DNA from: Octopus vulgaris
Lineage: Eukaryota
Length of the DNA stretch: 64,000 bases
Direction: 5' to 3'
Assembly: GCA_951406725.2 (NCBI GenBank)
Contig: OX597817.1
Location: 150,040,001 to 150,104,000 of the forward strand
Within the stretch, counting starts at the first letter, position 1, and each line of letters begins with the position of its first letter. Both the position numbers and the translations under genes were made by a program. Below, piece after piece: positions 15,450-42,665 of the stretch. The notes below the pieces were generated by a model, which was not told the DNA's origin, searched no databases, and worked only from the letters and a program-made list of their open reading frames with translations.

Positions 15450-18062
15450 AGATAAAGAACATAAGGTGCACGATTCTCTTTACTACTGAATGGGGGTGGG
15501 GTGGGAGTGGGGGTCTGTGTCCCTGTTGCGTGTGTAAAGTGAATGAAATTGGCTGAAGACAAAAACCAAGGAATGCTTAGGACAAAGTGGTGAAGATGTA
15601 TTTGAAGTTGTTGCATCTTATGCAGAAGACATACCTTCCTGTCCAGGCATTGTGGAACAAGTGTTCGTGTATATGTGTCTAAGTGTCTATATGTATATTT
15701 AGGCTTGTACGATACATACAAACTTTTAATGCTTATAGGTACATATATGTGTGAGTGTGTATATGTATGTGTATGTGTGTATATATGTACAAATATATTT
15801 ATTATATTTATAAATAGTTAGAAGTTCGTAAATCCAAAAAAGAAGTACCTATATGGCAAAGTGCTTAATAGATATGAAACTAGTGGTCTCTCTCTGACCA
15901 ACCAAAACAATCAGCTTCCTAAATACACACACAAACACGTGTGTATGTGTGTGTGTTGTAATGGTATATCTGTGTGTGTGTATGCATATACAAAGTGTTA
16001 TGGCTACATTTTTGACCCCACCCCCATATAGCTTCTAATACCCCTATCAATCACCACTCCATGCCCCTTTAATCTCATGTCTCTAGTGTTTGTGCCTCTA
16101 TTGCCCATCTCTCATCCCAACTCTTCTTAAATGCTGATGTAACTAAGGATAACACTGGATCTCCTTTGGCTCACCATAAATAGCTTCTAGTGTAACTAGA
16201 AATGCCATGACCCTCTCTCAATATTCCATCCTTTCCTCCCTCACTGTCATGACACCAGTTCTCTTGCCATCATGAAGCATTCCCCAGGGGATCTCGTCAC
16301 ACCTGTATATACCTCACACACTCTATCTGTATTCCTCCTTGGCTGCTTGGAACTGACATCCATTATTCACTCTTGCCATTTATCCACCTCTTGCTACCCA
16401 TCACTCTGTCTCCCATCCTCTCTAATTCTCCTGCCATGATAAAATGTACTCGATACTCTCTGTTGTGCACCGTTTGGTGCCGGTATCTTTAAAATATGCA
16501 CCCACTGCATTCTGTAAAGTTGCTGGTGTTAGGAATGGTGCCAAGCTGCGGAAACAAAACCAAAGATTAAACTTGTGAGTGAGGTGTGGTTCCCTGACCC
16601 ATTGTGGAGAATAGAAATAACCCATTTAACCCTGCCTGTGTGGGTAGAGTTCCCTCTCCCCTTTTCCTTCTTCCATACACTCCTAGTTTCTCTGTCCCCA
16701 CCCCTACTCACTTTGCACGTTGAGATGCCACCTGGACACCTCATCACGACTATTTGACTTTTTTGTAGCTGCTAACAATTTATATATAACTCTATCGCAA
16801 ATGAGAGTAGCCATGTTGCCCCTCTAAAACTAGAACCTACTCTGCCTCAACCCCATTTTACATACCTTAAGCCCTATCTGCAAGCATAACGCCCCACCTC
16901 CCAGGTCTTGTAGATTTGTCAGCTGCATGGCAACTTCACTAGTGCTAGTAGCACAAGAAAAGCACCCAGTATATATTGTAAAGTGTTTGGCATTAGAAAG
17001 GGCATCCAGCTATAGAAGCCATGCCAAAGCAGACTTTGGAGCATGATGTAGTCCCTGGACACATTAGATCCTGTTAAACTGTCCAACCCATACCAGCATG
17101 GAATATGGCCATTAAAAGATAATCACACACATAGTTTGTATTGAGTTATTACAAGAGATTTTCCTCAGCCACATAATTGTGTAGCAGCTTCAGCCAAGCA
17201 CACTTTTGTCATCATCCTAAGATAAGAGGGCGGCAGAGCACTCTCTCCATTAGAGACATTATGGCAAGCAGCTTCTTTGTGTGGTTAAACCAAGTGTCAA
17301 TCTGATTACCATCCATGCCTTTAGAAGTTTGAAGTTGTTCAAGAAGTAACCATGGATACAAGTGGACAGAGAAGAGTCAGCCGCAGTCACACACTTGGAA
17401 GAACAATGCTTAATAAGTGATTGTTCGTTTATGATAAATTTACTGATGAAGAATTCTGAACTATTAATGTCTTACAAAGAGTTGTAAATCTTCCTTTCCC
17501 AATTTTGAAGAGACAATCTTGAAATGCCAGTAGCAAAGCCACTTATTATGGCAAGCCTAAGTGTTGGAATTAGTGATGGATGATATACCAGAATGCAGTG
17601 AAATATATATATGTAGGCGCAGGCATGGCTGTGTGGTTAGGGAGCTTGCTTCCTAGCTACATGGTTTTGGGTTCAGTCCCACTGCGTGGCACTTACGGTA
17701 GGTGTCTTTCACTATAGCCCCGAATCGACCGAAGCTTTGTGATTGAATTCGGTAGGCGGGAGTTACTGCCACAAGTGTGTATGTGTGCGTATAGCTGCTC
17801 AGTGCCTCTCTGAAAGAGAGAGAGAGGGAATATATCTAATATATGATAAAAATTTTCGAAAAAAATTTTTATCAATGGCCAGCATATTAAGAAAATACCT
17901 TTAAAGGTTAAATTTCATAAACAACTTATAAACAAGGACAAAAGAAAAAATTCCAATGCCAAATATGCCGAAATATAGACTTATTCGTCAATAACTATAT
18001 AATTTATCACTATAAGCACGCATCTCGAAAGCAAGCCAATAGAAATTTTTTTTTTAATTTTA

Positions 18063-18124
18063 TTATCGGATCGGTCCCAATTTCTAAGTTAATTCATTTA
18101 GAATTTTCTCATCATCAACGATAA
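18063..18124 (-). ncRNA. type I hammerhead ribozyme (C3->T variant)
   Basis: Minus strand: ttatcg TTGATGA tgag..aattc taaat gaatt..ctta GAAA ttgg ga ccga TC cgataa. Confidence 0.7.
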
Positions 18125-18674
18125 ATACGATACTTACTTGCACCCATGGAAGAAGTAAATACTAAGTCATGAGTACATTTAAGTACCCCAAATATATCCA
18201 AAATAGAAATTCAACAGCATACCACGAGACATGTGTGATCGAACTGAAAATTCTCATAGAGTGAGAGAGTCCGGAAGTGAATAGTATTAAATTTATATCT
18301 AATATAGGATAAAAATTTTCAAAAAAATTGACGAATAAGTCTATATTACGGCATATTTGGCATTGGAATTTTTTCTTTTGCCCTTGTTTATGAGTTGTTT
18401 ATGAAATTTAACCTTTAAAGGTATTTTTTTAATATGCTGGCCATTAATAAAAATTTTTTTCAAAAATTTTTATCCTATATTAGATATAAATTTAATACTA
18501 TTCACTTCCGGACTCTCTCACTCTATGAGAATTTTCAGTTCGATCACACGTGTCTCATGGTATGCTGTTGAATTTCTATTTTGGATATATTTGGGATACT
18601 TAAATGTACTCATGACTTAGTATTTACTTCTTCCATGGGTGCAAGTAAGTATCTCATTTATTTCCTTATCGTAT

Positions 18675-18736
18675 TTATCGCTGATGACGAGAAAATTCTA
18701 AATGAATTAACTCAGAAATTGGGACCGATCCGATAA
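18675..18736 (+). ncRNA. type I hammerhead ribozyme
   Basis: ttatcg CTGATGA cgag..aattc taaat gaatt..ctca GAAA ttgg ga ccga TC cgataa: intact core, 6-bp stem I, predicted cleavage after 18730. Confidence 0.85.
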
Positions 18737-19104
18737 TAACGAAATTTTTTAGACATGTCTATCGGCATGCTTTCGAGATGCATGCTTATAGTGATAAATT
18801 ATATGGTTATTGACGAATAAGTCTATATTTCGGCATATTTGGCATTGGAATTTTTTCTTTTGCCCTTGTTTATAAGTTGTGTATATATATATATATATAT
18901 ACACCTTTCTGTAGTGACACTGTTCATCACAGTTTCTACAGCTGGCTTAATGAATATGAACGGCTGTGACAAGAATGATGTTTGATGCATAAAAATCAAA
19001 GACTGTGATTGTTGTTATAGGTAGCAACCAAGATGTTATCATGAATAGCTTTAATTTGATGAGATCTGTCTGGCAACAACATCATGGCTGCTATTGACCC
19101 TTTT

Positions 19105-41955: not shown

Positions 41956-42587
41956 GGGGGGGTGCAGAAATATAGGGGAGCACCAGTGGGAGGGGTGGTT
42001 CAGAGGACAGGTAATAGGCAAGTAGAACGTAGGATATCGAGAGAGGGGTAATGCATGGTGAAATAGCGTATTGAAGAGGGGGGTTCAAAGAGTAGACACC
42101 TATAATGGTGGTGGGGGGTGCAGAAATATAGGGGAGCACCAGTGGGAGGGGTGGTTCAGAGGACAGGTTCTAGGCAAGTAGAACGTAGGATATCGAGAGA
42201 GGGGTAATGCATGGTGAAATGGTGAAAATTCGTATTGAAGAGGGGGGTTCAAAGAGTAGACACCTATAATGGTGGTGGTGGGGGTGCAGAAATATAGGGG
42301 AGCACCAGCGGGAGGGGTGGTTCAGAGGACAGGTTCTAGGCAAGTAGAACGTAGGATATCGAGAGAGGGGTAATGCATGGTGAAATAGCGTATTGAAGAG
42401 GGGGTTCAAAGAGTAGACACCTATAATGGTGGTGGGGGGTGCAGAAATATGGGGGAGCACCAGTGGGAGGGGTGGTTCAGAGGACAGGTTCTAGGCAAGT
42501 AGAACGTAGGATATCGAGAGAGGGGTAATGCATGGTGAAATAGCGTATTGAAGAGAGGGGTTCAAAGAGTAGACACCTATAATGGTG
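41956..42587. repeat. G-rich minisatellite, four units of ~156 bp
   Basis: gtgcagaaat at 41962, 42118, 42284 and 42439; units nearly identical. Confidence 0.95.
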
Positions 42588-42665
42588 GGAGAAACGACAT
42601 CCGGTATAGTTGGAGCAAAATAGAGATATCCGGTATTGGTGGTGGGGGTGGGTAGAGCGGGCGCG

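What the first reader, a model, noticed from the sequence alone, without database searches (positions are those of the whole stretch)
17831..18880. Divergent pair of circularly permuted, slightly-more-than-unit-length hammerhead monomers: footprint of a circular RNA retroelement
Seen: the two arms are reverse complements of one ~470-bp monomer but begin and end at different points of it. Each runs past its own start (about 36 bp redundancy left, about 70 bp right). They join at a 3-bp microhomology (att, about 18327-18329), and each holds one type I hammerhead pointing outward. No ORF was found. Known: Penelope-like elements carry minimal hammerheads in their pseudo-LTRs and often insert with inverted copies, and animal non-LTR retrozymes are tandem hammerhead monomers that yield circRNAs. 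Inference: different permutations with ends away from the cleavage site (18730) fit reverse transcription once around a circular RNA, primed twice from opposite DNA ends by a Penelope-type RT acting in trans. I do not know of this two-armed form being described in cephalopods, but cannot confirm novelty.
Basis: partly seen in the sequence, partly recalled or inferred. Interest (0 to 1): 0.85.

Follow-up and report, generated by a model that had tools for sequence, protein, structure and literature searches.

The report
Penelope-style hammerhead retroelement, two-armed insertion
This is one copy of a roughly 470-base, protein-less repeat that carries a hammerhead-ribozyme motif and is scattered in well over a thousand copies through this animal genome; its ends match those of Penelope retrotransposons, so it was likely pasted in by a Penelope enzyme, probably copying from a circular RNA.

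Summary
Observation confirmed: two back-to-back arms of one 463-482-nt unit, each slightly over unit length, joined at ATT, one type I hammerhead each (left core mutated C3U). The interpretation needs correcting. The locus belongs to a dispersed family (1,682 exact hits to one 24-mer). Its 3' ends are fixed at two sites about 150 (E1) and 235 nt (E2) past the cleavage site, abut (TA)n, and 76 of 81 classifiable two-armed copies use one of each. 5' ends are random truncations; median arm about 0.4 unit, maximum 2.6. So 'once around the circle' is no rule (both arms unit-length in 3 of 119 pairs), and the two-armed form with a tail at one end is standard Penelope-like (PLE) anatomy, also shown by an intact PLE in this genome. 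What survives: copying runs seamlessly through the cleavage site (43 of 92 arms cross, 2 stop there) and no long source array surfaced, which favours but does not prove a circular template. No ORF-bearing parent was found. Verdict: a retrozyme-like, non-autonomous, likely PLE-mobilised family with an unusually long (~85-nt) tail and near-strict end alternation. Cleavage and circles are untested.

The parts
17831..18329 (-). Left arm, 1.07 units; 5' end at circle position 204 (position 1 = 18731), 3' end at E2 (~240); carries the tail; 17-nt deletion upstream of its hammerhead
17831..17920 (-). Tail: segment between the two family-wide 3' ends E1 (~150) and E2 (~235-240), present at this end only
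17845..17873 (-). A/U-rich stem-loop inside the tail ending just before E2; 11-14 bp in the three subfamily majorities; predicted protein-binding site (inference)
   Evidence: sequence
18062..18125 (-). Left type I hammerhead, core mutated C3U, predicted cleavage 3' of 18069; likely inactive
18327..18329 (.). ATT microhomology joining the two 5' ends
18327..18880 (+). Right arm, 1.15 units; 5' end at circle position 79, 3' end at E1 (150)
18674..18737 (+). Right type I hammerhead: stem I 6 bp plus 3-bp extension, CUGAUGA, long interrupted stem II, GAAA, 4-5-bp stem III, predicted cleavage 3' of C18730; C.A at 10.1-11.1 is a trait of this subfamily
18881..18901 (.). (TA)n run, the family's target sequence; the left flank has only a short AT run before a (GA)n tract

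Best explanation
The locus is a dead-end insertion of a non-coding, hammerhead-bearing ~470-nt repeat family with Penelope-type ends, likely written into a (TA)n run by a Penelope-like RT/GIY-YIG protein acting in trans and probably copying a circular monomer RNA. Steps. (1) Inferred: rare copies with two hammerheads are transcribed, self-cleave and ligate into a ~470-nt circle. (2) Inferred from PAc biochemistry: the PLE protein binds the tail region, nicks both strands of a TA repeat and primes cDNA from each DNA end. (3) Shown by copy ends: one end starts at E1 (~150 nt past the cleavage site), the other at E2 (~235), both at UA-rich template positions. (4) Shown: both cDNAs run through the cleavage site without a stop and break off at random, from 0.05 to 2.6 units. 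(5) Shown/inferred: the two 5' ends are joined back to back, often through a few shared bases. The window copy is a rare case in which both arms just exceeded one unit.
For: Dispersed family: 4,227 candidates, 600 hits to a hammerhead pattern, 1,682 to a 24-mer, controls 0. 119 of 190 unique loci are back-to-back two-armed; 76 of 81 pairs with both ends classifiable are E1+E2 (independence predicts 50%, p 1e-17); the pattern recurs by eye in the top rows. (TA)4 beside 104/119 E1 and 109/132 E2 ends versus 341/3,800 flank windows. An intact young PLE of this genome (4,270-nt unit, RT + GIY-YIG) shows the same anatomy: 3' ends 143 and about 170-189 nt past its hammerhead-like site, TA flanks, back-to-back arms, up to at least 2.2 units. 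In 92 arms sampled without regard to the hammerhead, 43 cross the cleavage site, 2 stop within 12 nt of it. No round-specific alleles inside the unit. A 2.6-unit query recovered only one other copy over 2 units and no long array among the 40 scored of 4,038 candidates. E1 arm reaches further 5' than the E2 arm in 38 of 76 pairs, so it was not copied from it. Arms of one insertion share sub-lineage variants (2.5% vs 0.7% of sites; closer than the median other copy in 51 of 62). Hammerhead: 11 core positions identical in the majorities of three subfamilies while N7 has three states and H17 two; 93.7% of 847 cells pair, A-U to G-C switch in stem II in 15 of 39 rows.
Against: No autonomous partner found: no homology of the unit to the PLE's own ends in 50 GIY-YIG loci or 22 loci of the young PLE, only neighbouring insertions. 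The tail is about 85 nt, not 30-40. In the young PLE only 4 of 7 complete pairs alternate ends, so strict alternation is not general. Only 3 of 92 arms are long enough to hold two hammerheads and 2 arms among the 190 loci keep two intact cores. Window subfamily A has C.A at 10.1-11.1; isolated motifs do not fold into the active form by MFE; RNAalifold recovered only outer stem II; Rfam did not hit. Shuffle controls ignore relatedness, and 11 unchanged positions at 14% subfamily divergence is not significant alone (about 0.19). In PAc, uncleaved RNA is the main substrate and cleavage is dispensable in vitro (PMC11167929). A small excess of near-palindromic junctions exists (9 of 76 within 10 nt, null 3.4, p 0.005). 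Copies are a median 7% from their subfamily majority, so a source array may have decayed.
Confidence: 0.6

Rival explanations
1. Same PLE-type mobilisation in trans, but the template is a linear, uncleaved read-through transcript of tandem source copies (or seamless template jumps); the hammerhead is a passenger or processes RNA at another step.
For: PAc inserts from unprocessed RNA and hammerhead mutants do not affect insertion in vitro (PMC11167929, main text read). Seamless crossing of the cleavage site fits any continuous template. The young PLE makes over-unit copies although all 36 of its hammerhead-like sites read CCGAAGA (U4C). Subfamily A amplified with a C.A mismatch next to the core.
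Against: No array longer than 2.6 units in 190 loci or in the top 40; the longest copies have daughter-type ends; 5' truncation would shrink a purely linear lineage unless length is regenerated; no 5' pile-up at a start site; hammerhead covariation across subfamilies.
Confidence: 0.27
2. The unit is simply the pseudo-LTR of an older autonomous PLE, and these are its 5'-truncated remains.
For: Most PLE copies are 5'-truncated and show only terminal repeats; hammerhead-to-end spacing (150 nt) resembles the young PLE (143 nt). 10 of 190 loci have PLE protein hits nearby.
Against: Arms over one unit return to the unit's own sequence, with no ORF in between. None of 62 single arms shares upstream sequence with another, bar one segmental duplicate pair. 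The 10 nearby PLE hits differ in orientation and distance; the two read by eye (L151, L187) are separate insertions.
Confidence: 0.04
3. The inverted arm arises by fold-back or self-priming (nascent cDNA or antisense template), as proposed for rotifer Penelopes, rather than by a second priming event.
For: 9 of 76 junctions are near-palindromic, above the permutation null; model in PMC3846280 (passages).
Against: 67 of 76 junctions are offset by more than 10 nt, in both directions (38 and 29); arm lengths are uncorrelated (rho -0.02); in the window the offset is about 126-145 nt.
Confidence: 0.07
4. Assembly artefact or DNA-level rearrangement of a satellite.
For: No laid contig spans the window junction (short Logan contigs of a repeat).
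Against: The same anatomy at 119 independent loci on many chromosomes; arms differ by about 5% plus indels, so they are not a chimeric read-back.
Confidence: 0.02

Closest known systems
Metazoan non-LTR retrozymes (Cervera & de la Pena 2020, PMC7229834; Li, Clavereau & Pollet 2026, 10.64898/2026.07.22.740005)
   Same: Small, low-GC (29%), non-coding unit with one type I hammerhead; head-to-tail repetition; thousands of copies; co-occurs with autonomous PLEs, which both papers propose as the mobiliser.
   Different: Mostly dispersed sub-unit fragments, no long arrays found; unit at the long end of the 170-400 nt invertebrate range; fixed PLE-type 3' ends, tail, inverted arm and (TA)n target, none of which I saw described for retrozymes in the parts read; no homology to a PLE pLTR found (the Xenopus families have it); cleavage and circles untested.
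EN+ Penelope-like elements (Penelope/Poseidon, Neptune, Naiad; PAc of Anolis, PMC11167929; PMC8557442; PMC3846280; PMC4209133)
   Same: Partial tandems, random 5' truncation, inverted 5'-truncated arm, tail at one end, two internal RT start sites downstream of a hammerhead, AT-rich/(TA)n targets, microhomology junctions.
   Different: No ORF; tail about 85 nt rather than 30-40; hammerhead has a 4-5-bp stem III and extended stem I rather than the minimal palindromic form; near-strict one-E1-one-E2 use (76 of 81), whereas PAc showed no strand difference in start site in vitro.
Non-autonomous Chlamys elements such as MRC1 (PMC8557442 passage)
   Same: ORF-less PLE-dependent elements forming pLTRs and head-to-tail multimers.
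   Different: Green-algal; generally resemble an autonomous family at the 3' end and mostly lack hammerheads.

Membership tests
Non-LTR retrozyme | Type I hammerhead in each unit | tested here: met
   core intact in right arm, C3U in left; Rfam no hit
Non-LTR retrozyme | Small, low-GC, non-coding unit | tested here: met
   463-482 nt, 29% GC, longest ATG frame 99 aa
Non-LTR retrozyme | [quoted passage not shown] | tested here: inconclusive
   Not met at the window locus (one per strand); met by 2 arms among 190 loci, L228 and L233
Non-LTR retrozyme | Self-cleavage in vitro | not testable with these tools
   covariation only
Non-LTR retrozyme | Accumulates as circular RNA | not testable with these tools
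   only assembled contigs of runs guessed to be RNA were available
Autonomous Penelope-like element | ORF with PLE RT and GIY-YIG endonuclease | tested here: not met
   no tblastn hit in the window; none contiguous with the unit in 190 loci
PLE-type insertion (works like) | Partial tandem with random 5' truncation | tested here: met
PLE-type insertion (works like) | Inverted 5'-truncated arm adjoining the 5' end | tested here: met
   119 of 190 loci
PLE-type insertion (works like) | Tail at one end between two fixed RT start sites | tested here: met
   76 of 81 pairs; about 85 nt, longer than the published 30-40
PLE-type insertion (works like) | AT-rich or microsatellite target | tested here: met
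   213 of 251 E1/E2 ends beside (TA)4 vs 9% control
Non-autonomous derivative of a named PLE | Sequence homology to the pLTR of an autonomous family | tested here: not met
   50 GIY-YIG loci (from 150 scored of 6,136 candidates) and 22 loci of the young PLE; sample is small

The most novel reading that the evidence does not exclude
This family is a genome-wide fossil record of target-primed rolling-circle reverse transcription: a ribozyme-made ~470-nt circular RNA hijacks a Penelope RT-endonuclease dimer, which primes the two cut DNA ends at two different fixed sites flanking one hairpin, one site per strand. That would be direct anatomical evidence that animal retrozyme circles are mobilised by PLEs and would explain why the PLE tail sits at one end only.
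Probability: 0.4. Interest if true: 0.72.

Novelty: new variant of a known kind. Interest (0 to 1): 0.48.

Why it matters
How animal retrozymes move and how PLE tandems, inverted arms and tails form are open questions; PLE mobilisation of retrozymes has been argued from co-occurrence and pLTR homology, and circular templates were proposed but not shown. A short unit with over a thousand copies gives statistics that a 4-kb PLE cannot: fixed start sites, one-per-arm usage and no stop at the ribozyme site. With a young intact PLE in the same genome, the model is directly testable in the published PAc-type assay. The single locus is ordinary within its family.

Tried and rejected
Rfam at gathering and E-value thresholds: no hammerhead family hit; 17 chance matches. 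No RNA holder on record; contigs from two DNA-guess and two RNA-guess runs cover the family but cannot show strand, ends, circles or this locus's junction: no verdict. Search for a parent PLE: GIY-YIG search, 20 + 20 fetched PLE regions, blastn and nhmmer: none. Shared upstream flanks of single arms: none. Long arrays: none in the top 40 of two multi-unit queries; only the best candidates are scored. Round-specific alleles occurred only where alignments run into the TA flank. Same-subfamily concordance of arms (68 of 69) was not used as proof of one template molecule because subfamilies may differ in age. Whole-circle folding gave z of about -7 to -8.5 on the sense strand but with only 12 shuffles, and the antisense strand also scored -2.4 to -8.9, so it is not counted as evidence for a circle. 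Earlier scan notes: nothing relevant. One search opened an unrelated paper and was ignored. Rejected: 'once around' rule, pLTR remnants, satellite, general fold-back.

Full report
Observation. The two arms, their periods (463 and 482 nt), redundancies (37 and 76 nt), the ATT junction and the two outward-pointing type I hammerheads are real. Circle position 1 is defined as window 18731, the base after the predicted cut. The right arm runs 79 to 150 (1.15 units), the left 204 to about 240 (1.07 units). The left hammerhead has C3U. No other copy and no long reading frame lies in the window. The host taxon was not tested; the genome has 2.80 Gb in 227 contigs.

The family. A search with the right arm gave 4,227 candidates; exact patterns gave 600 hits for the stem III-stem I region and 1,682 for a 24-mer near position 100-125, reversed controls 0. 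I fetched 216 family loci, 190 unique after removing duplicates: 28 picked by similarity, 101 by hammerhead patterns, 61 by the 24-mer (the first rows listed, mostly chromosomes C1-C3). Majority sequences of three subfamilies differ by 4-11%; copies are a median 93% identical to their subfamily, so activity is not very recent. The window copy is subfamily A, the rarest in the 24-mer sample (9 of 87 arms).

Ends. 119 of 190 loci are back-to-back two-armed, 62 single-armed, 9 more complex. Of 300 arms, 119 end in window E1 and 132 in E2, 49 elsewhere. Apparent ends at 162 and 246 are run-on into TA; match frequency drops after 150 and over 234-240, giving a tail of about 85 nt that holds a conserved 11-14-bp hairpin. 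Among the 119 pairs: 76 E1+E2, 4 E2+E2, 1 E1+E1, 38 with at least one unclassified end (left out of the test); p 1e-17 against independence. The similarity-picked set is biased towards E1 by the query end, but 34 of the 42 pairs in the 24-mer set are E1+E2. (TA)4 lies beside 213 of 251 E1/E2 ends against 341 of 3,800 control windows. Junctions overlap by 2 or more bases in 59 of 119, are blunt or 1-base in 21 and gapped in 39.

Lengths. In 92 E1/E2 arms from the 24-mer set, median lengths are 155 (E1) and 233 nt (E2); 13 reach one unit, 3 are long enough for two hammerheads, the longest is 2.63 units. 43 cross the cleavage site, 2 stop within 12 nt of it, and the stopping rate shows no step there or at one unit. 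Both arms reach 0.98 unit in 3 of 119 pairs, the window being one.

Two primings. The E1 arm extends further 5' than the E2 arm in 38 of 76 pairs and less far in 29; lengths are uncorrelated. Fold-back from the tail-bearing arm cannot give the first group. Nine junctions are near-palindromic, more than the null of 3.4 (p 0.005), so a minor fold-back route is possible. Arms of one insertion share sub-lineage variants, which points to one source lineage but not necessarily one RNA molecule.

Hammerhead. In 39 natural copies (40 candidates, one near-duplicate dropped) the 11 core positions are the same in all subfamily majorities, N7 has three states, H17 is C or A, stem II switches A-U to G-C, and 93.7% of cells pair versus at most 46% for slid controls. 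Caveats: relatedness inflates these scores; 57 of 404 columns differ overall, so core invariance alone is weak; subfamily A has C.A at 10.1-11.1 where B has the canonical G-C; MFE, RNAalifold and Rfam do not recover the full motif. Activity is predicted, not shown.

Mobiliser. The genome holds young PLEs with intact RT + GIY-YIG frames of 781 and 775 aa (76 of 76 scored matches of the second were 100% identical). Twenty-two loci of the second family show 3' ends 143 and about 170-189 nt past a minimal hammerhead-like site, TA flanks, back-to-back arms (4 of 7 complete pairs alternate, 3 carry the tail at both ends) and partial tandems. This is an internal control for the anatomy. Neither family, nor any of 50 GIY-YIG loci, shares sequence with the unit apart from neighbouring insertions, so the partner is unidentified.

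Circle or linear tandem. The template was continuous across the cut site and sometimes over 2.6 units long. No longer array appeared in 190 loci or among the 40 best of 4,038 and 3,186 candidates for multi-unit queries, and no pass-specific alleles exist inside the unit. A lineage that only truncates needs a way to regain length; a circle made from rare two-hammerhead copies is the simplest. Against this, PAc uses uncleaved RNA in vitro, sources may have decayed, and no RNA evidence could be obtained. I put PLE-type mobilisation at about 0.87 and, within it, a circular template at about two in three. The window locus could not itself yield a circle.

Literature. These establish the inverted-arm-plus-tail anatomy, internal RT starts bounding the tail, opposite-strand hammerhead pairs, the circle hypothesis, molluscan retrozyme circles and the proposed PLE-retrozyme link. 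Searches for octopus + hammerhead ribozyme, retrozyme + cephalopod, Penelope + octopus + non-autonomous, Penelope-like + twin priming and a six-term anatomy query returned no description of this family or of one-per-arm start-site use. Supplements were not opened and Repbase and Dfam were not available, so the family may already be catalogued. Hammerhead numbering and the effect of C3U are recalled from general knowledge, with C3/G8 and G10.1-C11.1 also stated in PMC11167929 and PMC4209133.

Verdict. Real, and a retroelement footprint, but the striking two-armed form is standard PLE anatomy. The added value is at family level: a retrozyme-like unit bearing a full PLE insertion signature, a long tail and near-strict end alternation. 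New variant of a known kind; interest 0.48.

Noticed in passing
L267 and 21 related loci (e.g. G000:C3:5852000-5861999): Very young PLE family, 4,270-nt unit, 775-aa RT + GIY-YIG frame preceded by shorter upstream frames; all 36 hammerhead-like sites read CCGAAGA (U4C), while older relatives (L104, L253) read CTGAAGA.
   Followed up: partly
L091:430-5672: Second young PLE family with a 479-aa upstream frame lacking Pfam hits and a 781-aa RT + GIY-YIG frame; 3' region has repeated CCAAT- and CRE-like motifs; no hammerhead found by my descriptors.
   Followed up: partly
L104:6560-6850 (-), L178:3070 (+), L249:833/1625, L054:1118, L002:1112, L186:836: Several other type I hammerhead families in the flanks, some with a stem III like this family's, one as an opposite-strand pair (L249) and one bounded by TA runs; likely more PLE ends or further retrozyme-like families.
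   Followed up: no
window 18642-18652 and 18501-18555: A GTAAGT splice-donor-like motif about 35 nt upstream of the hammerhead is kept in all three subfamilies, and ETS-like (CCGGAAGT, reverse) and E-box (CACGTG) motifs lie further upstream; possible internal promoter and intron as in Penelope 5' UTRs (motif names recalled).
   Followed up: no
L233, L253, L265, L266: A fourth subfamily about 18-20% from the others; the two arms of L253 differ by only 1.9% and share 44 non-majority bases.
   Followed up: partly
window 41958-42588: G-rich tandem repeat of about four ~158-nt units (reported by TRF as 2 x 321), no hammerhead.
   Followed up: no
L092:5547-5991, L194, L262: Family copies sit in the TA run at the 3' end of PLE copies, consistent with a shared (TA)n target.
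   Followed up: partly
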